Below are positions 43,959 to 64,000 of a stretch of DNA of 64,000 bases, in pieces. Source of the stretch: Chloroflexota bacterium (GTDB lineage: Bacteria > Chloroflexota > Dehalococcoidia > Bin125); contig VXQT01000032.1 in NCBI GenBank assembly GCA_009838915.1, forward strand, positions 11,016-75,015, given 5' to 3'. Below the pieces are notes generated by a model. That model was not told where the DNA came from. It saw nothing but the letters and a program-made list of their open reading frames with translations, and ran no database searches. Each line of letters begins with the position of its first letter. The stretch's first letter is position 1. The position numbers and the translations under genes were made by a program.

Positions 43959-44051
43959 GATCGTTCCCTTCACCATCGCTCTGGTTTGCGCGTCAAAGAT
44001 AGCGGATTGCCGCAGCGTTCCCGAGCCGGCGTCTCTTGCAAATCCGAGTGC

Positions 44052-50264: not shown

Positions 50265-51328
50265 TCGCGAGGCTCGTTCGTCGCGTCCGAGACTCCCGCC
50301 TCTCCGAACGTGGCCATCTCGTTGAGGCAAGCGGCCGCCGCATCCACGATGCCCATGGCCAGCAGTGCGCCCGATCCCTCGCCGAGCCGCATGTCGAGAT
50401 CAAGCAGCGGCTTCAGCCGTAACTGTTCCAGGGCGATGCCGTGTCCGCGCTCCGCCGAGCGATGGCCGGCAATCAGATAGTCGCGGCTCATGGGCACAAT
50501 CGACTGTGCGACGAGCGCAGCCGCAGCCGTGATGAATCCGTCCAGCACGACGGGCGTACGCCGCGAGGCCGCGCCCAGCACGACCCCGGCCAGGACGCCA
50601 ATCTCGAATCCGCCGAGTGTGCGCAGCACGTCCACACCGTCCGTCGGATCAGGCCGGTTAACGGCAATCGCCTGTTTGACCACGGCAACTTTCCTGGCAA
50701 GCTGTTCATCGCTGCGCGACGCGCCTCGCCCAGTGACGTTCTCTGCCGGACGTCCGCAGAGCACCGAGACTACTGCTGCGGCTGAGGTCGTGTTGGCGAT
50801 GCCCATGTCTCCGACGCCGATGATGTCGTCGTAGGCCGCCGCGGCGCGCGCGATCCTGGCGCCCGCGTCGAGCGCCGTTTCAGCCTGCTCCAGCGTCATC
50901 GCCGGGCCTTCAGCGATGTTCTGCGTTCCGAATCCCAGCCGCAGCGAGACCAGCTCGTCCGAGGGACCGACCGGCACGGCGACTCCGGCGTCGACGATGG
51001 TCAGATCGACGCCGGCTCGCTGCGCCAGCGTGTTCACGGCCGCGCCACCCTGGAGGTAGTTCTGCACCATCTGCGCAGTGACTTCTTGCGGATAGCTGCT
51101 CACGCCGCTCGCTGCGACGCCGTGATCGGCGGCAGCCAGGATCAGCTTCTTGCGATAGGCGCGCGGATGCTCGTCGCCTTGCATGCCGGCTAGCAGGATT
51201 GACAGCTCCTCCAACCTTCCCAGGCTGCCCGGCGGCTTCGTCAACTGCCGCTGGCGCTGCTCCGCCGCCGTCATGGCTTCGCGGTCGAGCGGTTCGATGA
51301 TCCGGAGGATGTCGTCGAGCATGATCAT
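50261..51328 (-). CDS. cobT: Nicotinate-nucleotide--dimethylbenzimidazole phosphoribosyltransferase
   Basis: LTKPPGSLGRLEEL and GDMGIANTTSAAA motifs. Confidence 0.9.
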   Translation of the reverse strand: MIMLDDILRIIEPLDREAMTAAEQRQRQLTKPPGSLGRLEELSILLAGMQGDEHPRAYRKKLILAAADHGVAASGVSSYPQEVTAQMVQNYLQGGAAVNTLAQRAGVDLTIVDAGVAVPVGPSDELVSLRLGFGTQNIAEGPAMTLEQAETALDAGARIARAAAAYDDIIGVGDMGIANTTSAAAVVSVLCGRPAENVTGRGASRSDEQLARKVAVVKQAIAVNRPDPTDGVDVLRTLGGFEIGVLAGVVLGAASRRTPVVLDGFITAAAALVAQSIVPMSRDYLIAGHRSAERGHGIALEQLRLKPLLDLDMRLGEGSGALLAMGIVDAAAACLNEMATFGEAGVSDATNEPRE

Positions 51329-51347: not shown

Positions 51348-51929
51348 CTAGAACTCGATGCCCGGCTGGGCCTTGATCCCCTGATCTTCGAACGGATGCT
51401 TGATCAGTGTCATCTCGGTAACCAGATCGGCGTAGTCGATCAGTTCCTGCGGCGCGTAACGGCCGGTGATGATCACGTGCATCGCCTCGGGACGCTGCTT
51501 GAGCGTCTCGATCACATCGCTCACGGCGACCCACTCGTAGTGCATCGCATAAGTGAACTCGTCGAGCACGATCAGGTCTTCCTCGCCCGCCAGGATCGCC
51601 TGCTTGCAGCGCTCCCACTGGGCGACGGCGAGGGCCGTCGTCTCGTCCATGTCCTTGGACAGCCAGGTGAAGCCGTCGCCCAACGACTCGATCGGCAGGC
51701 CGATCCGCTCGGCCGCGCGATGCTCGCCGAAGCGGGCGGTCGAGTGCTTGATGAACTGGAACATGCGCACGTTGAAGTCGCGGCCCCAGGCGCGGAAGAG
51801 CACGCCGAGCGCAGCCGTCGTCTTGCCCTTGCCGTCGCCTGTGTTGACGATCACCAGTCCGCGACGCACACGCGGACCTCGAGGCGCGGGCCGTTCCGGC
51901 GCCTGACCGGGATTCCTAGCTGATGACAC
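51348..51929 (-). CDS. cobO: Cob(I)yrinic acid a,c-diamide / cob(I)alamin adenosyltransferase
   Basis: GLVIVNTGDGKGKTTAALG P-loop and the LDEFTYA motif. Confidence 0.88.
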   Translation of the reverse strand: MSSARNPGQAPERPAPRGPRVRRGLVIVNTGDGKGKTTAALGVLFRAWGRDFNVRMFQFIKHSTARFGEHRAAERIGLPIESLGDGFTWLSKDMDETTALAVAQWERCKQAILAGEEDLIVLDEFTYAMHYEWVAVSDVIETLKQRPEAMHVIITGRYAPQELIDYADLVTEMTLIKHPFEDQGIKAQPGIEF

Positions 51930-52854
51930 CGGCGGCCTCGCTCTCGTCGCGGCGCGGAATGCCGGCTTCCCGCGCGGACGCAGTCTCGCCGACGCCGAGA
52001 TCCGCGTCGGGCTCCTCGTCCACTGCGGCGATCAGGCTGACCATCAGCGCACCCGTCGCGGGGTCGCGATGAATCTCGGAGCGAACGCCGAAGGCGTCTT
52101 CAATCGTCCCGGGCGTCAGCACCTCTGCCGCAATGCCCTCGGCCAGGACCCGACCCTCGGCCAGCACGACGAGCCGATCGCAGAAGCGGGCGGCGAGATT
52201 GAGATCGTGGATCGCGGCCACTGCCGTCAGTCCATCGTCAACGAGCCGGCGCACCAGCGACATGATCTTGAGCTGATGCAGAATGTCGAGGTTAGAGGTC
52301 GGCTCGTCCAGCAGTAGAACTCTCGGCTCCTGCGCCAGCGCGCGGGCGATGAAGACGCGCTGGCGCTCGCCGCCCGAGAGCGTGTCCAGCGTCCGTTCGG
52401 CAAAGCGATCGGTCTCGGTCAACCGCATCGCCTCGCCTGCGATCCGGTCGTCGTCTTCGCCCTCGACTTGCAGCCGTCCGAGGTGCGGATAGCGGCCCAT
52501 CAGCACCAGCTCGAACGTCGTGAATCCCTGTGTGTAGGGCGCGATCTGCGGGACCAGCGCCAACGTTGACGCGATCCGCTTCGCGCCCAGAGTGCGCAGA
52601 TCCTCGCCTTCAAGACTGATCGCCCCTTGCTCAATCTTGAGCACACTGGAGATGGCGCGCAACAGCGTCGACTTGCCCGCGCCGTTTGGACCGATCAGTC
52701 CCACGAACTGTCCGCGTCTGGCCTGCAGATCGACACGGTCGAGCAGCCGCTTGGCCTCGACGCTGAACGAGACCGCTTGCGCATCGATCGCGGACGGCGA
52801 CGCGCCGTTGGGCGTACTCACAGACCGTTCTCCCTTCGGCGGCGCGTCGGTCAC
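51916..52854 (-). CDS. ABC transporter ATP-binding protein (FecE/BtuD-like)
   Basis: Walker A GPNGAGKST, signature LSGGERQRV, Walker B LLLDEPTS. Downstream of a B12 riboswitch. Confidence 0.88.
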   Translation of the reverse strand: MTDAPPKGERSVSTPNGASPSAIDAQAVSFSVEAKRLLDRVDLQARRGQFVGLIGPNGAGKSTLLRAISSVLKIEQGAISLEGEDLRTLGAKRIASTLALVPQIAPYTQGFTTFELVLMGRYPHLGRLQVEGEDDDRIAGEAMRLTETDRFAERTLDTLSGGERQRVFIARALAQEPRVLLLDEPTSNLDILHQLKIMSLVRRLVDDGLTAVAAIHDLNLAARFCDRLVVLAEGRVLAEGIAAEVLTPGTIEDAFGVRSEIHRDPATGALMVSLIAAVDEEPDADLGVGETASAREAGIPRRDESEAAGVIS

Positions 52855-53939
52855 AGCGAATAGACCTGTCGCTTATTGCGGATCAGCAAGAAGATGAAGA
52901 ACGGCGCGCCGACGAACGCGGTCAGTACGCCCAGGCGGAACTCCGCCGGCGCGATGATCGTGCGCGCCACCGTGTCGACGGCGAGGACGAACACCGCGCC
53001 GCCCAGGGCGCTCATGGGAATCAAGACCCGATTGTCCGGGCCCAGCAGCAGACGCATGATGTGCGGAATGACCAAGCCGACGAATGCGATTACGCCGCTG
53101 ACGGCCACCGCAGCGCCGGTCGCCAGCGCGGCCGTGACCAGCAACAGCACCCGCATCCGACCGACCCGCACGCCCATCGAGCGCGCCTCGTCGTCACCCA
53201 GCATCAGCAAGTTCAGGTCGCGAGACAGCAGCAGCAGCAGGAACGCGCTGCCGAGAATCAGCGGCGACGCGATCCTGGCGTGGTCCCAGGACCGCGAGTC
53301 GAGTCCGCCCGCGAGCCAGAACAGCACTTCGCGCAGCGCCTCGTTGTCAGGCAGGAACAGAATGATCGCCGAAACCACGGCGCCGAGAAACGCGTTGATC
53401 GCGACGCCGGCCAGCAGCAATGTCGCCATCGAGAATCGGCCGCCGATCGCTGCGATCGCGTAGACGAGGAACGCGGCCGCGATCGCGCCGACGAAGGCGA
53501 ACACCGGCAGCGCCATCAGGAACAGCGCCGCCGCCCCCGTTGAGATCGCCACCACCGCCCCCAGCGCGCCGCCGGCCGAGACGCCGATGATCCCCGGATC
53601 GGCCATCGGATTGCGGAACAGCCCCTGCATCGTCGCGCCAGCCACGCCCAGGGCGATACCCACCGACGCTCCCACCACCAGCCGCGGCAGGCGGATCTGT
53701 TCAATGACCAGTTGCTCGGTGCGCCCGAAGTCGGGCACGTCGATCCCAAGTGGCGAGAACAGGATCCAGGCGACATGCGTGAGCGGAATCTCGACCGGAC
53801 CAAGGCCGAGCGAGACCAGCCCGACGACAATCACCAGCGCGAGCAGCGCCACAGTACCGACAGCAAGCCGAGTGCCAACGCCCATCCGGCGGTAACCGCG
53901 GAGCGTCGGTCGGCGAGACATCCAGGAGGGAGGCGACAT
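52851..53939 (-). CDS. FecCD-family ABC permease (BtuC-like)
   Basis: Polytopic FecCD pattern (RLPRLVVGASVGIALGVAGATMQGLFRNPMADPGIIGVS). The start is uncertain (ATG 53939 or 53921). The ORF-track start at 54062 abuts the riboswitch. Confidence 0.85.
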   Translation of the reverse strand: MSPPSWMSRRPTLRGYRRMGVGTRLAVGTVALLALVIVVGLVSLGLGPVEIPLTHVAWILFSPLGIDVPDFGRTEQLVIEQIRLPRLVVGASVGIALGVAGATMQGLFRNPMADPGIIGVSAGGALGAVVAISTGAAALFLMALPVFAFVGAIAAAFLVYAIAAIGGRFSMATLLLAGVAINAFLGAVVSAIILFLPDNEALREVLFWLAGGLDSRSWDHARIASPLILGSAFLLLLLSRDLNLLMLGDDEARSMGVRVGRMRVLLLVTAALATGAAVAVSGVIAFVGLVIPHIMRLLLGPDNRVLIPMSALGGAVFVLAVDTVARTIIAPAEFRLGVLTAFVGAPFFIFLLIRNKRQVYSL

Positions 53940-54067
53940 TCCGGCAACGGCCAACGAGAAACCTCCAGCGTCTCCGCTAGAGGTTGTGGGTTCGACCTGA
54001 CCGGCGCTTCCGCATTCGGAGCCCGGAGATCGAGGGACCTCTCTACTGCGGAGAGTTGTCACCTCAT

Positions 54068-54232
54068 CGTCCAGGCAGGTCTCCTGGCTTGCGGAGGGAG
54101 GCTGCGCGGCGCTCTTCCCATCGACGCTCGGTCGACAGTGGACGCCGTTTCCCTTTCCGGCTCTTTCGAGCCCCGCTCACAGTGGCGCTACCGCGGCGGA
54201 TTCTCACCGCCTTCCCTATTCTCCCGGGACGG
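54068..54232 (-). promoter_or_regulatory. Cobalamin (B12) riboswitch
   Basis: The minus strand reads AGGGAAGGCGGTGAGAATCCGCCGCGGTAGCGCCACTGT ... GGGAAG ... AAGCCAGGAGACCTGCC. The B12 box is at 54074-54090 and GCCACTG is at 54180-54186. It lies directly 5' of the BtuCD-like/cob operon. Confidence 0.85.
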
Positions 54233-54297
54233 GCACCTGGACGATTACTGCTGAGCGAAGGCTACCACAGGCTGGCGCCGACGCCCGCTCCAGGCCG

Positions 54298-55008
54298 TCA
54301 GTCGATGCCCAGCACGCCATAGTGACCATCGAGGATCAGACGGACCGAGACGTACACGCCCACCATCGGAATCAGGATCCAGACCGCGTTGGGGCCGAGC
54401 AGGTATATGTAGAAGTCTCGTGCCGTGAGCAACCGTCGCTTCTGTCCGACGAAGAAACTGACCAGGTAGAGCGAGGACGCATAGACCCACTGCCAGAAGA
54501 GCATCGCCCCGACGATGCCGGCAGCCATCGCCGGTATCACCCCCCCGGTGTAGGCCGCGTACAGCATCAACGTCGGCGCGATCGTCACGAACCCGTTGCC
54601 GATATCGATGTTGAATCCGTATGTGTTCCGATCCGCGTAGGCCGAGTCGAACATCGAGTAGGTCGCCCAGACTTCGGCCCAGACCGTGGGCGAGAACGCG
54701 CGCCGCAATGGCACCCGGCCAGTCAGGAACACGAGGGCGGGCGTGCGGCCGCCGTCACGCTGCCACTCACTCCAGTGCTCCGCGCGTCGCTCGATCTGGT
54801 CGCGGCGGAGGTACAGGCAAATCTCCCAGTAGCAGATCAGCAGATTGATTGAGAAGAACAGGCTGAACAGGAAGTGGAAGGCGTCCAGTCCGTCATGCAA
54901 CGCGTAGCGGACGGCGATCCCGGGCAGCGCCAGGAGCACGATTGCGAGCACGCCGAGCAAACCCGCGGGCGCGCTCCATCTTCCCGGTTGCTCGCTGGCT
55001 TCGGTCAA
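54298..55008 (-). CDS. EBP/EXPERA-like 4-TM membrane protein, candidate sterol C8(9)->C7 isomerase
   Basis: 236 aa and about 4-5 TM. WATYSMFDSAYADRN resembles the EBP segment WKEYAKGDSRY, and YIYLLGPNAVWILIPMV resembles the EBP segment FVFMNALWLVLPGV (human EBP recalled from memory). Divergent from the sterol operon. Confidence 0.45.
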   Translation of the reverse strand: MTEASEQPGRWSAPAGLLGVLAIVLLALPGIAVRYALHDGLDAFHFLFSLFFSINLLICYWEICLYLRRDQIERRAEHWSEWQRDGGRTPALVFLTGRVPLRRAFSPTVWAEVWATYSMFDSAYADRNTYGFNIDIGNGFVTIAPTLMLYAAYTGGVIPAMAAGIVGAMLFWQWVYASSLYLVSFFVGQKRRLLTARDFYIYLLGPNAVWILIPMVGVYVSVRLILDGHYGVLGID

Positions 55009-55189
55009 TCTGCCCGACCTCCCTCAGGCCGAAACTCAACCCCGCGCTCGCTGCCAAGCAGGTGTGCAGGATAGCGCTGCGCCATTGGCGCTCGACGAAC
55101 ATCTGCGTCGTCTTGAAGCTCCCAAACGCACGCCCTATTGTCTGGTACATATTCCACGGCGACGACCGAGCGCCCTCTCCGGGAGCCGA

Positions 55190-56284
55190 ATGGCCTCAGA
55201 CGCACTAGCCAGCCCAACCGACACTGCCGAACCTCCGGTGCTGCTGACCGGAGCCGCCGGACATGTCGGCGCCAATCTCGTGCGCCGCTTGCTTGACGAC
55301 GGCGTCCGAGTTCGAGTGCTGCTCAGGCCGGAGGACAACAACGAGTCCGTGGAGGGACTGGACGTCGAGCGCGCCTATGGCGACATTCGTGACCTGGAAG
55401 CCACCAGGCAGGCGATCGCCGGTTGTCACCGCGTCTATCACACCGCCGCGCTCGTCTCGACCATCGACGGCGACGACGCCCATCGCCGCGACGTGTTCGA
55501 ATCGAACGTGATCGGCACCCGCAACGTGCTCCAGGCCGCACGGGAAATGGAAGCTGGACGCGTCGTGGTTACCGGCTCGTTCAGCGCTGTCGGATACGAC
55601 CTGGACGACTCCTCTATTCCGACGAGAGAAACGATGCCGTTCTATCCGATGGAACGCACGATGCCCTACGAGCGCAGCAAGGCGATGGTCGAAACCGAAT
55701 GCTGGCATGCAGCGGCGGGCGGACAGGACGTGCTAATCGCCACGTCGTGCGCGGTTGTCGGCGGCAACGATTTCTTTCCGTCCAGAATGGGGAGAACGCT
55801 GTGCGACTTCGCCAATCGCAAGCTCCATGCCTATGTCGACGGCGGGTTCGAGTTCGTCGCGGCGCATGACATCGCAGAGGGCCACGTGCTCTGCATGGAG
55901 CGCGGAAGGTCAGGGCAGAAGTACATCTTCAGCTCCGAGTATCAGACGATTTCCGACATGCTGGATCACTTCCAGGCGGTCACAGGTGTCAAGCGTCCGC
56001 GTCGACAGATACCGCTCGGACTGATGCTCCCGTTCGCCGAGCTGTCGAGCCGCATGCTCAGCCGCTTCTGGCCGAGTTATCCGCAGCGCTTCACCCCCGG
56101 CGCGATCCGTCTGTTGCAGCAATGTCGACACGCCGACACGAGCAAGGCGAAAGAGGAACTCGGGTTCCAGCCGACCACGATTCGCAGCGCAGTCCAGGAT
56201 GCCTACGCGTTTCACTATCGGCGCGAGGCGATCACCAATCCGAACGCCATGCGCCCGGAAGCGCTGACTGCGGGAAGCGAATAG
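55190..56284 (+). CDS. Extended SDR, 3-beta-HSD/NAD-dependent epimerase family (SdmB-like candidate sterol C-4 decarboxylating dehydrogenase)
   Basis: LLTGAAGHVGANLV Rossmann motif and catalytic YERSK (YxxxK). First gene of the sterol operon. Start taken at MASDAL (ATG 55190). Confidence 0.6.
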   Translation: MASDALASPTDTAEPPVLLTGAAGHVGANLVRRLLDDGVRVRVLLRPEDNNESVEGLDVERAYGDIRDLEATRQAIAGCHRVYHTAALVSTIDGDDAHRRDVFESNVIGTRNVLQAAREMEAGRVVVTGSFSAVGYDLDDSSIPTRETMPFYPMERTMPYERSKAMVETECWHAAAGGQDVLIATSCAVVGGNDFFPSRMGRTLCDFANRKLHAYVDGGFEFVAAHDIAEGHVLCMERGRSGQKYIFSSEYQTISDMLDHFQAVTGVKRPRRQIPLGLMLPFAELSSRMLSRFWPSYPQRFTPGAIRLLQQCRHADTSKAKEELGFQPTTIRSAVQDAYAFHYRREAITNPNAMRPEALTAGSE

Positions 56285-56339
56285 CTATGCCGTCTCGCAT
56301 GGGTCCGGTTGCTTCCGCCGAAACGGATAAGCTCGCAGT

Positions 56340-57449
56340 ATGAGCATCGAGACGCAGCCCCGCACGGACGGTCCACCGACGGCGGAAGACGCCGCCAATC
56401 TGCGCCAGCAAGCACGGGCGGTGGGGATGAACCCCGACTATTGGTACGCCGTCGAGGAAGTGCGCAACGTCAAGCCGGGCTCGGTGACAGAAGTCGTCTT
56501 CTGGAAACAGTCGATCGCCCTCTTCCGCTCCGAGGACGGGTCGTTTCACGCGATGGAGAATCGCTGCCTGCATCGCCAGGTCAAACTCTCGCTCGGCGAA
56601 GTTGAGGGCTGCAGGCTCGTCTGCGGCTACCACGGCTGGGGATACGACGAGGAAGGGCACGTTGTCGACATTCCGGACCTGTTCGGACGCACCAAGGTCC
56701 CGAGGCTCTCGGTGCGTTCGTATCCCGTACAGGTTCGTTACGGGTTGGTCTGGATCTTTCCCGGCGATCCGGCGCTGGCCGAGGAACGGCGGATTCCCGA
56801 GATTCCCGAACTCGAGGGCCCCGGACGCTGGGCTTGCGTGCCACTCAGGTTCGATCTCACCGCCCATCACTCGATCATCATCGACAACGTCAGCGACTTT
56901 TCCCACGCCTACCTGCACCGACAGTATCGACCGTTCGACGGCGCCACGCTGACCCGCCATGAGACGATCGGCGACAACGTGCACCTCGCCTACGAGACGC
57001 GCGTGGGCCGCGGACGCATCTCCGGCAAGTTCGTCGATCACGGCCGCCTCAACACCAATCACATGGAACTCTGTTACGAGTATCCCTATCAGCGCTCCAA
57101 CACCGACGACGAGATCAAGCACTGGCTCTTCGTGCTGCCGATCGACGAACGCACCACGCGGACGTTCTTCCTCTTCTACTTCCAGTCGCTCAAAATTCCG
57201 CTGTTACCGGTCCGCATTCCCCGCTGGGCAATGACCACAGTGTTGCGCCTGGCGAACCGGATGCTGATCGGGCCGCTGCTCTCACAGGACCGCTGGGCGG
57301 TGGAGGCGGAGCAGGCCGGCTATGAGCACAACTGGGACGCTCCGCCGATCGAGGTCAACCCGGTCGTGCGCTCATTCCAACAGGTGACGGTGCGCAAGTG
57401 GCGCGAACACCTGGAGCGCGAGGCGGCCGTGAACGCGAACGATGCCTGA
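56340..57449 (+). CDS. Rieske [2Fe-2S] non-heme iron oxygenase (SdmA-like candidate sterol C-4 methyl oxidase)
   Basis: Rieske ligands CLH (56565-56573) and CGYH (56622-56633). The catalytic domain has DNVSDFSHAYLH. Sits between the SDR and sterol reductase genes. Confidence 0.6.
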   Translation: MSIETQPRTDGPPTAEDAANLRQQARAVGMNPDYWYAVEEVRNVKPGSVTEVVFWKQSIALFRSEDGSFHAMENRCLHRQVKLSLGEVEGCRLVCGYHGWGYDEEGHVVDIPDLFGRTKVPRLSVRSYPVQVRYGLVWIFPGDPALAEERRIPEIPELEGPGRWACVPLRFDLTAHHSIIIDNVSDFSHAYLHRQYRPFDGATLTRHETIGDNVHLAYETRVGRGRISGKFVDHGRLNTNHMELCYEYPYQRSNTDDEIKHWLFVLPIDERTTRTFFLFYFQSLKIPLLPVRIPRWAMTTVLRLANRMLIGPLLSQDRWAVEAEQAGYEHNWDAPPIEVNPVVRSFQQVTVRKWREHLEREAAVNANDA

Positions 57450-58539
57450 CATCCCCTCGGCCTGGACGTCGGTGTCCGGCCAGCATGTGCTCGAAGCTGC
57501 GGCGCTCTTCGCTGGGTTCGTCGCCATCTTGCTGTTGGGCTCGAAGGTGCTGCCGGGACGCAAGCAGGATGGACGGCCGGACCCCGAAGGCGTCACACGC
57601 ACCTACCATCTCAACGGTCTCACGCTGTTCCTGGTCGTCATGCTGGTTGCGGTGCTGGGCGAAGTGTTCAATCTGTTCTCGCTCTCGATCTTGCACAGCC
57701 ACTTCGCCGAGCTGTTCATCGTCGCCAACGTTTTCGCCTGTGCGATGTCGCTGGGACTGTACTGGCAAGCGTCGCGCACCGAAGAGCAGTCACCCGGATT
57801 GCTGCGAGGCATCTTCTTCGGCCGACAGCTCAATCCGACCTGGTTCGGAGTCGATCTGAAACTGTTCAGCTATCGACCGTCCTTGATCGGCCTGGCCCTG
57901 TTCAACGTCTCATTCGCTGTCGTTCAGTGGGACGCGAACGGCGGGCTCTCGTTACAGATGATTCTCTACCAGGCCTTCACCCTGCTGTACGTATTCAACT
58001 ACTTCCAGTTTGAGTATGGAATGATCTACACGTGGGACATTGTCGCCGAGCGGTTCGGCTGGATGCTGGCCTGGGGCGATTATGTGCTGGTGCCGTTCTT
58101 TTACTGTCTCGGCGGCTGGTGGGTGCTTGAGGCAACGGGCTCATTGCACAGCGTCGCGGCGGCGGCGATCTGCGTACTGTTCGTTGTGGGATTCACGATG
58201 TTTCGCGGCGCAAACGAACAGAAGCATCGATTCAAGCAGGACGCCGAGGCATCGATCTGGGGACGGCCGGCCGAATCGCTCGAAGGACGCCTATTGGTAT
58301 CCGGGTTCTGGGGCCTAGGCCGACATCTGAACTACACCGGTGAGATCTGCGTGTACTTTGCCTGGGCCCTGACCACCAGCTTCGCCTCGTGGATACCGTT
58401 CGCCTTGCCCGTGTGGCTGACAGCGCTTCTCTGGCATCGATCGCGGCGCGATGACCGACGCTGCCGCCTCAAGTACGGCGAGTTGTGGCAGCGCTACACG
58501 CAGCGGGTGCCCCACGCCTTGATTCCGCGCGTCTACTAG
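57442..58539 (+). CDS. ERG4/ERG24-family sterol reductase (probable sterol C-14 reductase)
   Basis: Polytopic. GANEQKHRFK, GLGRHLNYTGEI and LWHRSRRDDRRCRLKYGELWQRY are hallmark motifs of eukaryote-type sterol reductases. 8-nt overlap with the upstream gene. Confidence 0.8.
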   Translation: MPDIPSAWTSVSGQHVLEAAALFAGFVAILLLGSKVLPGRKQDGRPDPEGVTRTYHLNGLTLFLVVMLVAVLGEVFNLFSLSILHSHFAELFIVANVFACAMSLGLYWQASRTEEQSPGLLRGIFFGRQLNPTWFGVDLKLFSYRPSLIGLALFNVSFAVVQWDANGGLSLQMILYQAFTLLYVFNYFQFEYGMIYTWDIVAERFGWMLAWGDYVLVPFFYCLGGWWVLEATGSLHSVAAAAICVLFVVGFTMFRGANEQKHRFKQDAEASIWGRPAESLEGRLLVSGFWGLGRHLNYTGEICVYFAWALTTSFASWIPFALPVWLTALLWHRSRRDDRRCRLKYGELWQRYTQRVPHALIPRVY

Positions 58540-58544
58540 ACTCG

Positions 58545-59960
58545 ATGCCTGAGGATCTTCCGAGGACTGCGATGGTTCAACTGCGCGATGCTCCCACGGC
58601 GACACCGGAAGCCCGACCGATCCCGGTGCTCGGTGGCGGCGCGCCCCTGCTTGGCCACCTCTGGGAGTTCCAGCGAGATCCCGTAGCGATGCTCGAGCGT
58701 GGACGCCGCGAGTTGGGCGATCTGTACCAGTTCAGCCTCGGACCGCGAAAGTTCGCGCTCTTTTCCGGACCCGACGCGCACGACGCCTTCTTCAGCGCGC
58801 CCGAAGATCAACTGAATGCCAAGGCGGTCTACCAGTTCACGGTCCCTATCTTCGGCCGCGGCGTCGCCTACGACGTGGCGCCGCAGATTATGGACGAACA
58901 GCTGGGATTCCTGTATCCGGCGCTGCGCGAAGCCGCGATGCAGCAGTTCGCCCGGATCATGTTCGAGGAGACCTCGCTGCTCGCCGACTCGATGGGCGAC
59001 TCGGGCGTGATCGACCTGCCCGAGACGATGAATCGGCTCACGGTCAACATCGCCAGCCGCAGCCTGATCGGACAGGAAGTCCGCGACCAGGTCGACGCCG
59101 GTTTCGCCGACGCGTATCACGATCTGCAGAAGGGCATCAACACGCTGGGGTTCTTTCTGCCTCGGTTGCCCACGCCGGCGCACCGCAGCCGCGACCGCGC
59201 GCGCCGGCGGGTGGCCGACCTCTTCGGCCGGATTATGAGCGCGCGGCGACGCGCGGAGCATCGTCCCGACGATTTCATGCAGTCGCTCATGGAGGCCGCC
59301 TACAGCGACGGCCGTTCCCTGAGCGACGATGAGATCACCGGCATTCTGCTGACGGTCCTGTTCGCCGGCCAGCACACAAGCGCCGTGCTCGCTACCTGGA
59401 CGGGCCTGGAGCTGCTTAGGGCGTCCTCCTACTCGGACCGGGTCAGGGACGAGACGCGCGACATCTACGGCGGTTCGGGCGAAATGAACCTTGAAGGCCT
59501 GAAGCAGCAGGTGACCACGGAACATGCCGTGCGCGAGTGCGAGCGACTGCATCCCCCGTTGATCATCCTGATCCGCAAGGTGCTCAGGACGATGCGCTAC
59601 GGCGATTACACAGTGCCGGCTGGCGCAATGGCCATGGTCTCGCCGGCGGTCTCCCATCGGCTGCCGCACCTGTTCGATGAGCCCGACCGCTTCAATCCCG
59701 ACCGCTTCGCTCCGCCGGCCCGCGAGGACAAGCAGCATCCCTACGCCTTGATCGGATTCGGCGGAGGCAAGCACCGCTGCATGGGTAAGCACTTCGCCGA
59801 GATGCAGGTCAAAGCGATCTGGACCGTGCTGCTGGATCGCTTCGAGTTCAGTCTCGACACCGAGTTTCCCTCGCCCAACTACGGCAGTTGGGTGACGGGT
59901 CCGGTCACCCCCTGCCGGCTCCGCTATCGGCGCCGCTCGCAGGGAAGCGTGTTCCGGTGA
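58545..59960 (+). CDS. cyp51: Cytochrome P450, CYP51-type sterol 14-alpha-demethylase
   Basis: Heme loop FGGGKHRCMG (59757-59786) and I-helix FAGQHTS. The N-terminal GHLWEFQRDPVAMLERGRRELGDLYQF...YQFTVPIFGRGVAYD parallels M. tuberculosis CYP51 as I recall it. Start at ATG 58545, with 58572 as an alternative. Confidence 0.8.
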   Translation: MPEDLPRTAMVQLRDAPTATPEARPIPVLGGGAPLLGHLWEFQRDPVAMLERGRRELGDLYQFSLGPRKFALFSGPDAHDAFFSAPEDQLNAKAVYQFTVPIFGRGVAYDVAPQIMDEQLGFLYPALREAAMQQFARIMFEETSLLADSMGDSGVIDLPETMNRLTVNIASRSLIGQEVRDQVDAGFADAYHDLQKGINTLGFFLPRLPTPAHRSRDRARRRVADLFGRIMSARRRAEHRPDDFMQSLMEAAYSDGRSLSDDEITGILLTVLFAGQHTSAVLATWTGLELLRASSYSDRVRDETRDIYGGSGEMNLEGLKQQVTTEHAVRECERLHPPLIILIRKVLRTMRYGDYTVPAGAMAMVSPAVSHRLPHLFDEPDRFNPDRFAPPAREDKQHPYALIGFGGGKHRCMGKHFAEMQVKAIWTVLLDRFEFSLDTEFPSPNYGSWVTGPVTPCRLRYRRRSQGSVFR

Positions 59961-62900
59961 CGGATGGCGATATCGGCCGTTATGACGTAGCGATCGTCGG
60001 CGCCGGGCCGGTCGGCAGCGTCTGCGCGATTGCTCACGCGCGCAAGGGCTACCGGGTCGCGCTGTTCGAGGCCAATCCGGCGGCGTCCAAGCGGCTGGCC
60101 GGCGAGTGGCTGCATCCTCCCGCCGTGCGGGTCCTGAGTGAACTCGGCATCTCCGTCGAGGGCGAGGTGCCAAGCACCTCGGGCGAAGGCTTCGCCGTGT
60201 TTCCCGAGGACGGCCGGGAGCCGATCGTCCTCCCATATGCCGACGGATCGCGCAGCCTGGTCTGCGAACACGCTGCCCTTGTCTCGCACCTGCGCCAGGT
60301 CGCCGGCAACGAGCCGGGCGTCGATCTGCGAGTCCACGCTCGCGTGCGCAGCGTCGAGGACGGGCGGATCACGTTCATGCAGGATGGCGTGGAACACACC
60401 GCTCTCGCTGAGCGCATCGTCGGTGCGGACGGGCGGTCGTCCGTCGTCCGACGATCCCTGGGGCTGAGCACGCAAACAAGAACCTGTTCGCGGATGATCG
60501 GGCTGACGCTCAAGGAGGTGGACTTGCCCCTGGAGGGCTACGGCCACGTCCTCAGCGGCGCGCCCGGTCCAATGCTGATCTACCGGCTGAACGAAGACAG
60601 TATCCGTGCGGTCATCGATATCCCACTTGACCTCTCGCCCCACGAGTGGAAGCGCCTGCTCTCCGACTCGTACGCACGTTGGGTTCCGGAGCCGCTGCGC
60701 CCCGCATTCCTCGATGCATGTACGGACGAGCGATTTGACGCCGCCGCCAATGTCGTCAGCCCGCGACTCACGTACGGAACCTCCCGCCGCGTGCTGATCG
60801 GCGACGCGGCGGGACACTACCACCCGCTGACCGCGACCGGGATGACACTGGGCTTCGGCGACGCGTTCGAACTGGCGGAGGGCGAGGAGTTCAGCGACTT
60901 CCGAAACCACCGATTCGAAGCCACGCGTGTGCCCGAGCTTCTGGCAATGGGCATCTACGAGGCCTTTGCCGATCAGCGGGTCGAAGGGACCGCCCTGCGC
61001 CAGGCAATGTACAGCCGATGGCGAGCCAGTTCCGGTGTGCGGGGCCGCACCATGCGGCTGCTCGGTTGTGAAGACACGAGGATTCGCAGCTTGAGTCGCG
61101 AGTTCTCGACGACGGTGCTCTGGGCGCTCCGGGCGAGACTGCCAAAGTCGTTCAGTCCCAACGCCTGGCGCGAGTATCGCGATGTCGCTCGGGGATTGAG
61201 CAATCGCCTGGCCTGGCTGCTGCGGGCCGCATGGCACCTCTACAGCGTCAGACGCGCAGGCGGGACCGGAACCGAACGCCCCACCGAGGCGCTCGCCCGC
61301 GCCTTCTTGACCTCAATGCCTTCAGGATCGCCGGCCCCGGATCGCACCGAGCAGCCTGGCGAGATCGAAGTAGACGCGCCCGATGCGAGCTTGGCCGTCC
61401 AGCGCGCCGTCGAGCGGCTGCTCAACCTCCAGACGGAGGACGGCGGCTGGGAAGGCGAGATGGTCTGGTGCCCGATGATCACGGCCCAATGGGTGCTGCT
61501 CCAGCACATCCTTGGTCGCCCGATCGACCCCGACCGTCGGCGCCGCCTGCTGCGCTACTTCGAGCAGTCGCGACTGGCCGATGGCCAATGGGGTCTGCAC
61601 GATCACTCCGCTCCGCACCTGTTCGTCACAACCCTGGTCTATGTCGCCGTCCGGGTGTTGGGCATCGAGCGGGACGATCCGTTGATTGCACCGGCGCTCC
61701 GCTTCATCCAGGCGGAAGGCGCGCTGGGCATCCCGAGCTGGGGCAAGTTCTGGCTGGCGCTGCTCAATCTCTACGACTGGGACGGACTCCACCCGGTACT
61801 GCCCGAGCTGTGGAGCTTGCCCCGCCGACTGCCGCTGCATCCCTCCAAGTGGTACTGCCACACGCGACTGATCTACATGGCCATGGCCGCGATCTTTGCA
61901 CGTCGATTCCAGGCGGCCGTGACGCCGTTGATCGGTTCCCTGCGCGAGGAGCTGTACCCCCAGGGCTACGAGACCGTCGACTTTCCTGCCGCCCGCAGCC
62001 GACTGCGCACGGCCGACCTGTTCGCCGCGCCGACGGTCTGGCTGCGAACTCTGTATCGCGGCGCGCAGCTTGTCCAGCGATTCCACCTCCCCCGCCTGCG
62101 CGAGCGGTCGGTCGACGCAATGGTTGAACAGATCAAATGGGAGTTGAACACCACCGACCACACCAGCATCTCGCCGGTCAGCGGACTGCTCAACATCCTC
62201 GCGCTGTGGTTGCACGATCCCGAGGATCCCGATGCGCAATGCGCCCTGGAGCAGGCCGAGCTCTGGTTCTGGGAAGACGAACAGCGCGGCGCGCGCCTGA
62301 CCGGCGCAAAGAGCGCCTCATGGGACAGCGGATTCGCGCTCCAGGCGCTCGCGACCGCAACCCACATCGAGGGCGTCCCCGACGCGCTTGAACGCGGACG
62401 CGAGTACCTGGGCCGCCAACAGATTGTCGCCAGTTTCCCCGGCTACCGCGAGGCCTATCGCAACGATCCGCAAGGCGGCTGGTGTTTCGCCGAGCGATGG
62501 CATGGCTGGCCCGTATCCGACTGCACGGCCGAAGCCGTGCTCGGCATCGTCGCCGCCGATCGCGCGTCGGGCGCAGATCCGGCCGGCACGGACGCGCTGC
62601 GCGACGGGGTGCGCTTCATGCTGCGCGCGCAGAATCGCGACGGCGGCTTCGGCAGCTACGAGGCGCAGCGCTCACGCTTCGATCTCGAACGCATCAATCC
62701 CGCCGAGATGTTCGGCGAGTCGATGACCGAACACTCGTACGTCGAGTGCGCCGCCTCGTGCATGGCGGCGATCGCCGCGTGGCGCAGGGCGGCGACTGCC
62801 GCCGGCCGCGAGCACGCGCCGAACGCCGTCGACGCGGATGCCGAGCGCGCCCTCGAGCGCGCCGACGCCTGGTTGCGCCGCACTCAAGGTGACGACGGCT

Positions 62901-63364
62901 CGTGGCGCGGCGTCTGGGGCGTGCAGTACATCTACGGCACCTTCTTCGGCATCCGAGGCCTGCTCGCCGGTGGTGCACCACCTGGAGATCCGGCGCTGCG
63001 ATCCGCCTGCCGCTGGCTGCTGGATCGGCAGCGTGACGACGGCGGCTGGGGGGAGCACCACAGCGGCTGCCTGAGCGGACAGTACGTCCCGCACGACGAG
63101 AGCCAGGTGATCCAGACCGCCTGGGCGCTAATCGCATTGCTCGAAGCGGGCGACGAACACTGGAGCGCCATCGCGCGAGGCGCGCGCTTCCTGGTCGATA
63201 GTCAATGCGAGGACGGCGGCTGGGCGCGCCAGGACATGGCCGGCGTCTTCTTCCGCACCGCCCTGCTCGACTACGTCCTCTACCGCCAGTACTTCCCGCT
63301 GCACGCGCTCGGACTCTACGAAGCCCGGCGAACTGCCCGCCACGTTGGATTGAACGACGGATAG
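59957..63364 (+). CDS. Fusion protein: squalene monooxygenase (N-terminal) + oxidosqualene cyclase (C-terminal)
   Basis: Single uninterrupted frame. The N-terminal half has YDVAIVGAGPVGS, GEWLHPPA, VGADGRSS and IGDAAGHYHPLTATGMT (squalene epoxidase pattern). The C-terminal half has QW-type repeats (LQTEDGGW, RAQNRDGGFG, RRTQGDDGSW, DRQRDDGGW, SQCEDGGW) and VSDCTAE at 62519-62533. GTG 59957 overlaps the cyp51 stop (GTGA). Confidence 0.8.
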   Translation: MTDGDIGRYDVAIVGAGPVGSVCAIAHARKGYRVALFEANPAASKRLAGEWLHPPAVRVLSELGISVEGEVPSTSGEGFAVFPEDGREPIVLPYADGSRSLVCEHAALVSHLRQVAGNEPGVDLRVHARVRSVEDGRITFMQDGVEHTALAERIVGADGRSSVVRRSLGLSTQTRTCSRMIGLTLKEVDLPLEGYGHVLSGAPGPMLIYRLNEDSIRAVIDIPLDLSPHEWKRLLSDSYARWVPEPLRPAFLDACTDERFDAAANVVSPRLTYGTSRRVLIGDAAGHYHPLTATGMTLGFGDAFELAEGEEFSDFRNHRFEATRVPELLAMGIYEAFADQRVEGTALRQAMYSRWRASSGVRGRTMRLLGCEDTRIRSLSREFSTTVLWALRARLPKSFSPNAWREYRDVARGLSNRLAWLLRAAWHLYSVRRAGGTGTERPTEALARAFLTSMPSGSPAPDRTEQPGEIEVDAPDASLAVQRAVERLLNLQTEDGGWEGEMVWCPMITAQWVLLQHILGRPIDPDRRRRLLRYFEQSRLADGQWGLHDHSAPHLFVTTLVYVAVRVLGIERDDPLIAPALRFIQAEGALGIPSWGKFWLALLNLYDWDGLHPVLPELWSLPRRLPLHPSKWYCHTRLIYMAMAAIFARRFQAAVTPLIGSLREELYPQGYETVDFPAARSRLRTADLFAAPTVWLRTLYRGAQLVQRFHLPRLRERSVDAMVEQIKWELNTTDHTSISPVSGLLNILALWLHDPEDPDAQCALEQAELWFWEDEQRGARLTGAKSASWDSGFALQALATATHIEGVPDALERGREYLGRQQIVASFPGYREAYRNDPQGGWCFAERWHGWPVSDCTAEAVLGIVAADRASGADPAGTDALRDGVRFMLRAQNRDGGFGSYEAQRSRFDLERINPAEMFGESMTEHSYVECAASCMAAIAAWRRAATAAGREHAPNAVDADAERALERADAWLRRTQGDDGSWRGVWGVQYIYGTFFGIRGLLAGGAPPGDPALRSACRWLLDRQRDDGGWGEHHSGCLSGQYVPHDESQVIQTAWALIALLEAGDEHWSAIARGARFLVDSQCEDGGWARQDMAGVFFRTALLDYVLYRQYFPLHALGLYEARRTARHVGLNDG

Positions 63365-63388
63365 AGTGGCCCTCGCCCTCGAGAACGA

Positions 63389-64000
63389 TCAGCGGCCGAC
63401 AATGGCGCGCAGCGCGAAGCGCGCGTTGGACGGCCGCTCCGCGATCCGGCGCATCAAGTACGGATACCAGCGCGCGCCGTAGGGAATGCTCATCCGCAGC
63501 CGCTCGCCGCGGGAGCGCATCGCCGCGCCCAGCTCGGGACGCACCCCGTACAGCATCTGGAATTCCCAGTAGCCGATAGTCGACTGGTCGTTGGCCAGTC
63601 TGCGAGCCGCGGCATGCAGCACCGGATCGTGGGTTGCCACGCCGACATCGGCCCCCGCTTGCCAGAGCTGCTCCAAGATCCCCGTGTAGGCCCGACGAAT
63701 CGGGCCCGCGCCGCTGTGCGCGATACGGCTCGACTCGCTGTAGGCGCCCTTGGTCAGACGCACCCGCGCGATGCCCTCGTCGATCAGCGCCTGTGCATCA
63801 TCCGGCGTGCGCCGCAGGTAGCTCTGCAGCGCGACGCCGGTCAGCTCCGACTCCGCCGCCGCCGTCCGATACAGCCTCAGCGTCGCGTCGACGGTGTGCG
63901 ACACCTCCATGTCGAGCTCGACCCGCACGCCGTTCTGCGATGCCGTCTCGACGATCGTCAACAACCCGCGCTCGGCCGTTTCGTAGGAGATGCCCAGGCC
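63389..64000 (-). CDS. Proline dehydrogenase (PutA PRODH-domain family), 5' end beyond window
   Basis: LQSYLRRT, VRLTKGAY, GVATHD, EFQMLYGVR and MRRIAERP are PRODH barrel motifs. The frame is open to the window end. Confidence 0.8.
   Translation of the reverse strand, partial: GLGISYETAERGLLTIVETASQNGVRVELDMEVSHTVDATLRLYRTAAAESELTGVALQSYLRRTPDDAQALIDEGIARVRLTKGAYSESSRIAHSGAGPIRRAYTGILEQLWQAGADVGVATHDPVLHAAARRLANDQSTIGYWEFQMLYGVRPELGAAMRSRGERLRMSIPYGARWYPYLMRRIAERPSNARFALRAIVGR

What the first reader, a model, noticed from the sequence alone, without database searches (positions are those of the whole stretch)
59957..63364. Squalene monooxygenase and oxidosqualene cyclase encoded as a single ~1135-aa polypeptide
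The epoxidase-like region (to about 61250) and the cyclase region (from about 61390) share one frame with no stop. They are joined by a ~45-aa Pro/Gly/Thr/Glu-rich linker (RRAGGTGTERPTE...SGSPAPDRTEQPGEIEVD). A fusion would channel 2,3-oxidosqualene directly from a monotopic monooxygenase to the cyclase. In the organisms I know of, these are separate genes. I cannot verify from memory whether such fusions have been reported.
Basis: seen in the sequence. Interest (0 to 1): 0.8.

Follow-up and report, generated by a model that had tools for sequence, protein, structure and literature searches.

The report
Fused squalene epoxidase–lanosterol synthase gene
The window really does encode squalene epoxidase and oxidosqualene (lanosterol) cyclase as one 1135-residue protein at the end of a five-gene bacterial sterol operon, but this fusion is common in sponge-symbiont bacteria and was published in 2020 as MsbE, so it is real, untested biochemically and not new.

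Summary
Observation confirmed. One open frame (GTG 59957 to TGA 63364, 1135 aa) holds an N-terminal FAD squalene-epoxidase domain and a C-terminal oxidosqualene-cyclase domain.

It is not an assembly artefact. The identical protein lies on five contigs from at least two separate assemblies. All 78 complete related loci (about 9 phylum-level groups, mostly sponge-symbiont MAGs) keep one uninterrupted frame.

The "45-aa linker" has two parts. Residues 436-457 are a conserved tail of the epoxidase, also present in an unfused relative and under purifying selection. Only about 18 residues (458-475) are a variable, probably disordered spacer.

The gene ends a colinear cassette: sdmB-like, sdmA-like, ERG24, CYP51, fusion. 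The cyclase keeps the catalytic VSDCTAE aspartate and has Val at human position 453, the bacterial lanosterol marker.

[quoted passage not shown] The cassette was reported in 115 of 537 Ircinia MAGs (Kelly 2022). I found no biochemical characterisation, and substrate channelling remains inference.

A closely related unfused pair (stop, then 5 nt, then start) shows fusion is not obligatory. Interest is low to moderate.

The parts
55064..56284 (+). sdmB-like gene for an NAD(P)-dependent epimerase/3-beta-HSD family oxidoreductase. First gene of the sterol cassette, equivalent to msbA and to 'DFR' in Kelly 2022. The exact start is uncertain.
   Evidence: Pfam Epimerase E 4.5e-32 and 3Beta_HSD E 3.5e-17. 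It sits in the same position in about 65 of 80 related loci. Described as msbA.
56340..57449 (+). sdmA-like Rieske [2Fe-2S] oxygenase, a C-4 sterol demethylase type (equivalent to msbB).
   Evidence: Pfam Rieske E 7.6e-22 and VanA_C E 3e-12. Colinear in related loci at 68-92% identity.
57442..58539 (+). Sterol C-14 reductase of the ERG4/ERG24 family (equivalent to msbC).
   Evidence: Pfam ERG4_ERG24 E 1.7e-71. Colinear in related loci.
58485..59960 (+). Cytochrome P450 in the CYP51 (sterol 14-alpha-demethylase) position (equivalent to msbD). The longest ORF starts at 58485. Gene callers on identical contigs start it at positions equivalent to 58545 or 58572.
   Evidence: Pfam p450 E 2.3e-53. 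Gene calls of 471 and 462 aa in L082 and L083. Its stop overlaps the start of the fusion gene.
59957..63364 (+). Fused squalene epoxidase::oxidosqualene cyclase gene, 1135 codons plus stop. MsbE-type.
59957..61261 (+). Squalene epoxidase domain, residues 1-435. FAD motifs are GAGPVG 15-20, GADG 156-159 and GDAAGHYHP 282-290. Y209 corresponds to human Y335. Long amphipathic C-terminal helix at 401-433.
   Evidence: Pfam SE and FAD_binding_3. phmmer to human SQLE 6C6N, E 2.9e-22. Foldseek to 6C6N, TM 0.78 over 439 of 450 residues. Invariant columns. Helices from the model.
61262..61327 (+). Conserved C-terminal tail of the epoxidase, residues 436-457 (RRAGGTGTERPTEALARAFLTSMPS, short helix 442-451).
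   Evidence: Conserved across 42 homologues. Has 8-10 synonymous against 1-2 non-synonymous changes. Aligns to the C-terminus of the stand-alone 477-aa SE in L081.
61328..61381 (+). True inter-domain spacer, residues 458-475 (GSPAPDRTEQPGEIEVDA). Variable in sequence and length, and predicted disordered.
   Evidence: Alignment. Non-synonymous changes at 0.39-0.67 per codon, against 0.07-0.22 in the domains. pLDDT below 50 for 435-471.
61382..63364 (+). Oxidosqualene cyclase (predicted lanosterol synthase) domain, residues 476-1135, plus the stop codon. Catalytic D855 lies in V853-S-D-C-T-A-E (codon 62519-62521). V853 (codon 62513-62515) corresponds to human V453.
   Evidence: Pfam. phmmer to human OSC 1W6K, E 8.5e-123 with residue alignment. 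Foldseek to 1W6K, TM 0.76. Invariant D855, C856, C931, H635, Y901, W987, F1098 and Y1106.

Best explanation
This is a genuine bifunctional enzyme and an orthologue, by architecture and gene order, of MsbE from sponge-symbiont bacteria. It is the last gene of a horizontally spread five-gene sterol cassette (sdmB-like, sdmA-like, ERG24, CYP51, SE::OSC) in a Dehalococcoidia (Chloroflexota) genome. The proposed mechanism follows.

- The N-terminal FAD monooxygenase domain epoxidises squalene to (3S)-2,3-oxidosqualene. Its reductase partner is not in the cluster.
- This domain sits on the membrane through its C-terminal amphipathic helices.
- The C-terminal class-II cyclase domain protonates the epoxide with D855 and cyclises it, most likely to lanosterol (Val853).
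- A flexible spacer of about 18 residues tethers the two monotopic domains on the same membrane face.
- The tether fixes 1:1 stoichiometry and proximity, which may shorten the diffusion path of oxidosqualene.
- CYP51, ERG24 and SdmAB would then remove the C-14 and C-4 methyl groups.

Shown here: the single conserved ORF, the domain identities, the conserved catalytic residues, the synteny and the distribution. Inferred: both activities, the product, and any channelling benefit. The fusion most simply arose by loss of the stop and short spacer between adjacent, translationally coupled SE and OSC genes, as seen unfused in L081.
For: - **ORF and domains:** single ORF with both domain sets.
- **Independent assemblies:** identical protein on 5 contigs, including NCBI GCA_009845245.1 and ENA ERZ23491782.
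- **Homologues:** the 120 listed homologues (62-86% identity; about 115 full-length at 1109-1168 aa, a few truncated) share the architecture.
- **Genomic loci:** all 78 complete loci keep one frame. They come from Chloroflexota, Nitrospirota, Actinomycetota, Binatota, Alpha- and Gammaproteobacteria, Acidobacteriota, Thermodesulfobacteriota and Gemmatimonadota.
- **Synteny:** the cassette is colinear in about 65 of 80 loci.
- **Cyclase half:** matches human OSC at E 8.5e-123. D455, C456, C533, H232, Y503, W581, F696 and Y704 equivalents are all conserved and invariant in the family.
- **Product marker:** V853 corresponds to human V453, which tracks lanosterol production in tested bacteria (PMC4919349).
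- **Epoxidase half:** passes the Pfam SE cutoff and keeps the FAD motifs and the Y335 equivalent. Its modelled fold covers nearly all of human SQLE, including the membrane-helical domain.
- **Junction:** under selection in frame.
- **Unfused relative:** a pair with a 5-nt gap exists in the same cassette.
- **Literature:** the same architecture and gene order are published.
Against: - I found no biochemical data for any member of this fusion family.
- The epoxidase has Phe79 and His53 where human SQLE has Y195 and Q168. Y195F removes more than 90% of human SQLE activity (PMC6327030). However, every bacterial relative retrieved, fused or not, has the same F/H pair.
- The cyclase has A784 and H849 at human positions 381 and 449, and Met502 where human OSC has Tyr98. 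The product is therefore not certain.
- The structure model gives no confident inter-domain arrangement (pTM 0.50).
- An unfused lineage within the family shows that fusion is not required for function.
Confidence: 0.85

Rival explanations
1. The fusion is an assembly or sequencing artefact (a missed stop or frameshift), and the organism really has two genes.
For: A closely related cassette, L081, does have two genes separated by TAG plus 5 nt and lying in different frames. A single indel could therefore convert one state to the other.
Against: The identical 1135-aa protein is on 5 contigs from at least two separate assemblies. All 78 complete loci from different species and assemblers, including long-read chromosomes, keep one frame. 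Synonymous changes far outnumber non-synonymous ones in the junction tail, and in-frame GC3 holds across it.
Confidence: 0.01
2. The gene is transcribed as one ORF but yields two proteins. Either the cyclase is initiated internally at ATG 61316 (M454), or the polypeptide is cleaved in the disordered spacer.
For: The spacer 458-475 is variable and predicted disordered. An unfused version works in a related lineage. M454 is present in most homologues.
Against: M454 is Ile in 8 of 42 homologues. No purine-rich ribosome-binding sequence precedes 61316. M454 lies inside the conserved epoxidase tail, upstream of where the stand-alone cyclase begins. The reading frame has been kept across about 9 phylum-level groups, which would be unnecessary if two proteins were made.
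Confidence: 0.07
3. One domain has lost or changed its function. Either the epoxidase is inactive or acts on another substrate, or the cyclase makes cycloartenol, parkeol or an arborane-type product rather than lanosterol.
For: F79 and H53 replace the human Y195 and Q168 pair needed for SQLE activity. A784, H849 and V853 form a mixed signature at positions 381, 449 and 453, and Met502 replaces Tyr98. A divergent fused homologue, P0132, has lost the catalytic Asp. Degeneration therefore does occur in this superfamily.
Against: Both domains are highly conserved here, with a mean column identity of 75% and invariant catalytic and FAD motifs. Kelly et al. report omega 0.17 for this gene. The F/H pair is shared by all bacterial relatives retrieved, fused or unfused. 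V453 alone tracked the product in the tested bacteria. The downstream CYP51, ERG24 and SdmAB genes only make sense with a 4,4,14-trimethyl sterol product.
Confidence: 0.07

Closest known systems
MsbE of the msb locus, from a gammaproteobacterial symbiont of the sponge Melophlus sarasinorum (Mohanty et al. 2020, Mar Drugs 18:124, PMC7074536)
   Same: [quoted passage not shown] The gene order is the same: msbA (NAD(P) oxidoreductase), msbB (Rieske), msbC (sterol reductase), msbD (14-demethylase), msbE.
   Different: The host phylum differs (Chloroflexota/Dehalococcoidia here). Identity to gammaproteobacterial members is about 62-65%. I could not compare directly with the MsbE sequence. No SMT (msbF-like) gene follows here; proline dehydrogenase on the opposite strand follows instead.
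'Clusters of steroid genes' (ERG24-CYP51-LSS) in Ircinia sponge MAGs (Kelly et al. 2022, PMC9531527), and 'fused SMO/OSC homologs' in Aplysina aerophoba metagenomes (Brown et al. 2023, PMC10070321)
   Same: Same cassette and length: a mean of 5910 bp for the three genes, and an 'LSS' codon alignment of 3765 nt, which fits the fused gene. They report it in 115 of 537 MAGs across 10 phyla, with evidence of HGT and low omega. In Brown's Supplementary Data 1, one gene id hits both ERG1 and ERG7 and is followed by ERG11, ERG24, sdmA and sdmB.
   Different: In the section read, Kelly et al. call the gene only LSS/ERG7 and do not mention the epoxidase half. Brown et al. mention the fusion only in Methods. 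Neither tested the enzyme.
Adjacent but separate sqmo and osc genes of sterol-producing bacteria (Methylococcus capsulatus MCA2872 and MCA2873, Gemmata obscuriglobus), and the unfused pair found here in L081
   Same: Same two enzymes in the same order, in one operon. In L081 the cassette is otherwise the same, lacking only ERG24. That SE is 54% and that OSC 69% identical to the window protein.
   Different: These are two polypeptides. In L081 the SE ends in TAG, and the OSC starts 5 nt later in another frame. The gene adjacency in Methylococcus and Gemmata is from my own knowledge of the literature and was not checked here.
CYP51-ferredoxin natural fusion of Methylococcus capsulatus (PMC7947880)
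   Same: It is another natural domain fusion within a bacterial sterol pathway.
   Different: It fuses an enzyme to its redox partner, not two consecutive pathway enzymes. The CYP51 in this window has no ferredoxin domain.

Membership tests
Squalene epoxidase (Pfam PF08491 SE; FAD-dependent monooxygenase, SQLE/ERG1 type) | Match to the SE family model above its curated threshold | tested here: met
   PF08491 scores 78.1 bits against a cutoff of 20.1, over residues 154-385. FAD_binding_3 scores 80.5 bits.
Squalene epoxidase (Pfam PF08491 SE; FAD-dependent monooxygenase, SQLE/ERG1 type) | FAD-binding motifs: GxGxxG, the Glu at the end of beta-2, DG and GD | tested here: met
   G15-x-G17-x-x-G20, E38, R46, G156-A-D158-G159 and G282-D283 are invariant in 42 homologues. 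They align to the human SQLE motifs.
Squalene epoxidase (Pfam PF08491 SE; FAD-dependent monooxygenase, SQLE/ERG1 type) | Conserved active-site tyrosines of eukaryotic SQLE: the Y195 and Q168 pair, and Y335 | tested here: inconclusive
   The Y335 equivalent, Y209, is invariant. Y195 and Q168 are replaced by F79 and H53. The same F/H pair is in all bacterial relatives retrieved. Y195F inactivates the human enzyme.
Squalene epoxidase (Pfam PF08491 SE; FAD-dependent monooxygenase, SQLE/ERG1 type) | [quoted passage not shown] | tested here: met
   Foldseek to 6C6N gives TM 0.78 over 439 of 450 target residues. This is better than PqsL (0.66) and PHBH (0.71). The model is of moderate quality (pLDDT 71).
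Squalene epoxidase (Pfam PF08491 SE; FAD-dependent monooxygenase, SQLE/ERG1 type) | Squalene 2,3-epoxidation activity with a reductase partner | not testable with these tools
No reductase gene lies in the cassette.
Oxidosqualene cyclase / lanosterol synthase (class II triterpene cyclase) | Two alpha/alpha-toroid cyclase domains (PF13249 and PF13243) with Q-x(2-3)-G-x-W/F repeats | tested here: met
   E 1.6e-51 and 3.3e-57. Five repeats of the Q..G.W/F type, at Q492, Q892, Q977, Q1025 and Q1083. TM 0.76 to human OSC 1W6K.
Oxidosqualene cyclase / lanosterol synthase (class II triterpene cyclase) | OSC-type catalytic motif VxDCTAE (Asp455 with Cys456 and Cys533) rather than the DxDD of squalene-hopene cyclase | tested here: met
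   V853-S-D855-C856-T-A-E859 and C931 are all invariant in the family.
Oxidosqualene cyclase / lanosterol synthase (class II triterpene cyclase) | Deprotonation and cation-stabilising residues: H232, Y503, W581, F696 and Y704 in human numbering | tested here: met
   H635, Y901, W987, F1098 and Y1106 align to them and are invariant.
Oxidosqualene cyclase / lanosterol synthase (class II triterpene cyclase) | Product-determining residues: V453 for lanosterol against I453 for cycloartenol; T381 and C/Q449 | tested here: inconclusive
   V853 points to lanosterol by the bacterial rule. Position 381 is A784 and position 449 is H849, which is cycloartenol-like. Position 98 is Met.
MsbE-type fused SE::OSC in the msb / CSG sterol cassette of sponge symbionts | Single ORF with the epoxidase N-terminal and the cyclase C-terminal | tested here: met
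   Description of MsbE.
MsbE-type fused SE::OSC in the msb / CSG sterol cassette of sponge symbionts | Gene order: oxidoreductase, Rieske oxygenase, sterol reductase, 14-demethylase, fusion | tested here: met
   Window 55064-63364. Same order in about 65 of 80 loci. Published order.
MsbE-type fused SE::OSC in the msb / CSG sterol cassette of sponge symbionts | Direct sequence similarity to MsbE itself (GenBank MT026193.1) | not tested
The link is indirect, through 62-65% identity to gammaproteobacterial sponge-symbiont loci and through Kelly's BLASTn of CSGs to MT026193.1.

The most novel reading that the evidence does not exclude
The fusion may be more than a neutral stop-codon loss. The conserved epoxidase tail (residues 436-457) plus the short tether might hold the two monotopic active-site entrances together on one membrane face. 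Oxidosqualene would then be handed over without equilibrating in the bilayer. This would suppress over-oxidation to 2,3;22,23-dioxidosqualene and make the cassette a self-sufficient, easily transferred sterol module, which could explain its spread across about 9-10 phyla of sponge symbionts. No such natural epoxidase-cyclase channelling machine has been shown biochemically.
Probability: 0.25. Interest if true: 0.55.

Novelty: already known. Interest (0 to 1): 0.3.

Why it matters
Sterol synthesis by bacteria, and by sponge symbionts in particular, bears on how sterane and "sponge" biomarkers in old rocks are read. It also bears on how symbionts live inside a phagocytic host. The fused enzyme is the entry point of the most widespread bacterial sterol cassette in sponges, yet I found no expression or assay of it.

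It also offers a natural template for the epoxidase-cyclase fusions that metabolic engineers build by hand.

One practical point: surveys that filter cyclases by length leave this whole family out. An example is the 600-800 aa filter in PMC12324236. Public annotations also tend to call the gene only "FAD-dependent oxidoreductase" or "lanosterol synthase".

Tried and rejected
- **Domain geometry from AlphaFold2.** I modelled the full protein with a 42-sequence alignment to see how the domains sit. Quality was moderate (pLDDT 71, pTM 0.50) and the linker was disordered. Nothing can be said about channel alignment.
- **Promoter and terminator scan of 54000-64000.** No promoter-like sites, and terminator-like sites no more frequent than in shuffles. 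Uninformative for this high-GC, non-sigma-70-consensus organism.
- **Taxonomy of divergent fused clusters.** The listing of cluster members returned almost no names for P0121-P0134.
- **Literature on biochemistry.** Searches for MsbE, SMO-OSC, 'fused SMO' and 'bifunctional squalene epoxidase' found nothing beyond the three descriptive papers. Hoshino & Gaucher 2021 and the 2025 cyclase survey do not mention the fusion.
- **Artefact hypothesis.** Considered and rejected.
- **Internal start at M454.** Considered and rejected.
- **NJ tree of cyclase domains.** It places the unfused L081 inside the fused clade. It has no support values, so I do not decide between secondary fission and repeated fusion.
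- **Opposite-strand ORFs.** The long ORFs such as 59924-61237 and 61322-62239 are the usual shadows of a 66% GC gene.
Full report
**1. The observation**

The + strand carries one open frame from 59888 to 63364. The likely start is GTG 59957. It overlaps the TGA of the upstream P450 gene in the sequence GGTGA. It also gives an N-terminus that matches homologues, which begin 7-8 residues before RYDVAIVGAGPVG. The product is 1135 aa.

Pfam finds these domains:
- FAD_binding_3, residues 9-307.
- Squalene epoxidase (SE), residues 154-385, at 78.1 bits against a cutoff of 20.1.
- SQHop_cyclase_N, residues 481-775.
- SQHop_cyclase_C, residues 786-1122.

No stop separates the two halves. GC3 stays the highest codon position through the junction.

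**2. Not an artefact**

- The identical 1135-aa protein lies on five contigs, including NCBI GCA_009845245.1 and ENA ERZ23491782.
- A search of 5.8 billion proteins listed 120 homologues at 62-86% identity. About 115 of them are full-length (1109-1168 aa) and a few are truncated; they carry the same domain set.
- A scan of one genome per species gave 352 relatives. The best 80 loci all match the query end to end.
- In the 78 loci that do not run off a contig, a single frame of at least 1135 codons spans both halves.

**3. The junction**

*Conserved tail.* Residues 436-457 (RRAGGTGTERPTEALARAFLTSMPS) are conserved across 42 diverse homologues. Against four close relatives they show 8-10 synonymous and only 1-2 non-synonymous changes. 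They align to the C-terminus of a stand-alone 477-aa epoxidase. They therefore belong to the epoxidase.

*True spacer.* Residues 458-475 vary in sequence and length, with 0.39-0.67 non-synonymous changes per codon. They fall in the stretch modelled with pLDDT below 50.

*Internal start.* M454 (ATG 61316) lies inside the conserved tail. It is Ile in 8 of 42 homologues. No ribosome-binding sequence precedes it. A separately initiated cyclase is unlikely.

**4. The surroundings**

The gene closes a five-gene, same-strand cassette:

| Coordinates | Gene |
|---|---|
| 55064-56284 | NAD-dependent epimerase/3-beta-HSD family (SdmB-like) |
| 56340-57449 | Rieske oxygenase (SdmA-like) |
| 57442-58539 | ERG4/ERG24 sterol reductase |
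| 58485 or 58545 to 59960 | P450 in the CYP51 position |
| 59957-63364 | SE::OSC fusion |

Genes overlap or abut, which suggests one operon. tblastn of these proteins against the 80 loci shows the same order and spacing in about 65 of them. In Binatia and Thermodesulfobacteriota the sdmAB pair lies downstream and inverted. About ten loci (for example L014, L017, L023, L027) show no recognisable cassette genes beside the fusion within the fetched flank.

By record title, the loci come from:
- Dehalococcoidia and other Chloroflexota (the closest, at 71-85%).
- Nitrospirales, Acidimicrobiales and Binatia.
- Alpha- and Gammaproteobacteria.
- Acidobacteriota, Thermodesulfobacteriota and Gemmatimonadota.

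Many titles name sponge lineages or sponge bins, such as Porisulfidus, Poriferihabitaceae and Spongia_Bin9. The closest locus, L001, also shares the downstream proline dehydrogenase. The window is therefore most likely a sponge-associated Dehalococcoidia genome. The sponge origin is inferred from names and from the literature below.

**5. The two halves**

*Cyclase half.* It matches human OSC (1W6K) at E 8.5e-123. The residue alignment gives these equivalents, all invariant in the family:
- D855 in V-S-D-C-T-A-E corresponds to D455.
- C856 and C931 correspond to C456 and C533.
- H635 and Y901 correspond to H232 and Y503.
- W987, F1098 and Y1106 correspond to W581, F696 and Y704.

This is the OSC motif, not the DxDD of hopene cyclases. 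Position 453 is Val (V853). In the bacteria tested by Wei et al., V453 tracked lanosterol and I453 tracked cycloartenol (PMC4919349). Positions 381 and 449 are Ala and His, and position 98 is Met. Lanosterol is therefore the best guess, not a certainty.

*Epoxidase half.* It matches human SQLE at E 2.9e-22. It keeps GxGxxG, DG, GD and the Y335 equivalent Y209. The modelled fold covers 439 of 450 residues of 6C6N at TM 0.78, including the C-terminal membrane-helical domain.

One departure: human Y195 and Q168 are F79 and H53 here. Y195F costs the human enzyme more than 90% of its activity (PMC6327030). Every bacterial relative I retrieved, fused or unfused, has the same pair. It is a clade trait rather than decay of this gene.

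**6. Relatives without the fusion, and other fusions**

*Unfused relatives.* A search of 1.84 billion cluster representatives found stand-alone cyclases at 40-53% identity and stand-alone epoxidases at 42-53%. The contig of the closest stand-alone epoxidase (L081) carries sdmB, sdmA, CYP51, then SE (477 aa, ending TAG), then 5 nt, then OSC (666 aa, in another frame). That OSC is 69% identical to the window's cyclase half. It falls inside the fused clade in a rough NJ tree. Its epoxidase cluster has 13 members, 11 of them full length (477 aa), seen on several contigs, so the split is real. The fused and split states therefore interconvert by small changes, and fusion is not obligatory.

*Other fusions.* More distant fused SE::OSC clusters exist at 45-50% identity (P0121-P0126). 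Some members have a degenerate cyclase. A different architecture also exists: SE plus a cyclase-like fragment plus squalene synthase.

**7. What is already known**

- Mohanty et al. 2020 (PMC7074536) describe the msb locus of a gammaproteobacterial symbiont of Melophlus sarasinorum. Its genes are msbA (NAD(P) oxidoreductase), msbB (Rieske), msbC (sterol reductase) and msbD (demethylase). [quoted passage not shown] This is the same cassette.
- Kelly et al. 2022 (PMC9531527) report ERG24-CYP51-"LSS" clusters in 115 of 537 Ircinia MAGs from 10 phyla. The mean length is 5910 bp and the LSS codon alignment is 3765 nt, sizes that fit only the fused gene. They report HGT and omega 0.17.
- Brown et al. 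[quoted passage not shown] Their Supplementary Data list one gene hitting both ERG1 and ERG7.
- I found no paper that expressed or assayed the fused enzyme.

**8. Mechanism and verdict**

*Most likely (0.85):* a true bifunctional enzyme that turns squalene into lanosterol on the membrane. The two monotopic domains are tethered by a short flexible spacer. CYP51, ERG24 and SdmAB act next.

*What fusion provides:* it guarantees equal amounts and proximity of the two domains.

*What is not shown:* real channelling is plausible but unshown. My model could not address it (pTM 0.50).

*Rivals:* an assembly artefact (0.01), two products from one ORF (0.07), and one domain with changed or lost function (0.07).

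*Verdict:* the finding is correct, but it is already in the literature and abundant in databases. It is worth an experiment rather than an announcement.

Noticed in passing
window 54057-54255 (-), with 52851-54062 (-), 51916-52854 (-), 50261-51328 (-) and 49503-50330 (-): A cobalamin riboswitch (91.4 bits) sits upstream of a FecCD permease and an ABC ATPase. These are followed by CobT-type phosphoribosyltransferase and CobS cobalamin-5-phosphate synthase genes. Together they look like a B12 uptake and salvage unit directly upstream of, and divergent from, the sterol cassette.
   Followed up: partly
L081 6001-9440: An unfused epoxidase (477 aa, TAG) and cyclase (666 aa, GTG) lie 5 nt apart and in different frames. 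They sit in an otherwise similar cassette that lacks ERG24. The cyclase is 69% identical to the window's and nests among fused forms in a rough tree. This is either a secondary fission or evidence of repeated fusion.
   Followed up: partly
proteins P0190, P0208, P0218, P0233, P0247 (database representatives, not in the window): A different natural fusion of about 1080-1190 aa: N-terminal squalene epoxidase, a short cyclase-like alpha/alpha-toroid fragment, then a C-terminal squalene/phytoene synthase domain. I found no description of this architecture in the papers read. Their source organisms are unknown.
   Followed up: partly
proteins P0132 and P0134 (database representatives): Fused SE::cyclase homologues at about 39% identity with eroded cyclase halves. 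P0132 has Lys where the catalytic Asp should be (PCAKTTAE instead of VSDCTAE) and large internal deletions. The cyclase domain is probably inactive.
   Followed up: no
L002 8001-11372 compared with window 59957-63364: Identity is uneven along the gene. The epoxidase half is 93% identical to the window but the cyclase half only 77%, whereas L001 is 86% and 85%. This suggests recombination within the fused gene among Dehalococcoidia relatives.
   Followed up: no
window 58485-58572: The start of the CYP51-position P450 is ambiguous. The longest ORF (GTG 58485) overlaps the ERG24 stop by 55 nt. Gene callers on contigs that carry the identical fusion protein start it at positions equivalent to 58545 (471 aa) or 58572 (462 aa).
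   Followed up: partly
window 59999-60200 (residues H53 and F79 of the fusion): All bacterial epoxidase relatives retrieved have His and Phe where human SQLE has the functionally required Q168 and Y195 pair. The bacterial enzymes may organise the active site differently.
   Followed up: partly
window 42096-43976 (-): A tungsten-type aldehyde:ferredoxin oxidoreductase (AFOR_N and AFOR_C, E 6.5e-125). This enzyme is usually linked with anaerobes. Here it is in the same genome stretch as an O2-dependent sterol pathway.
   Followed up: no
window 7753-13802 (+): Two adjacent genes of about 1000 aa each. One has a PD-(D/E)XK nuclease domain; the other has UvrD helicase plus PD-(D/E)XK domains. They are probably an AddAB-type helicase-nuclease pair.
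   Followed up: no
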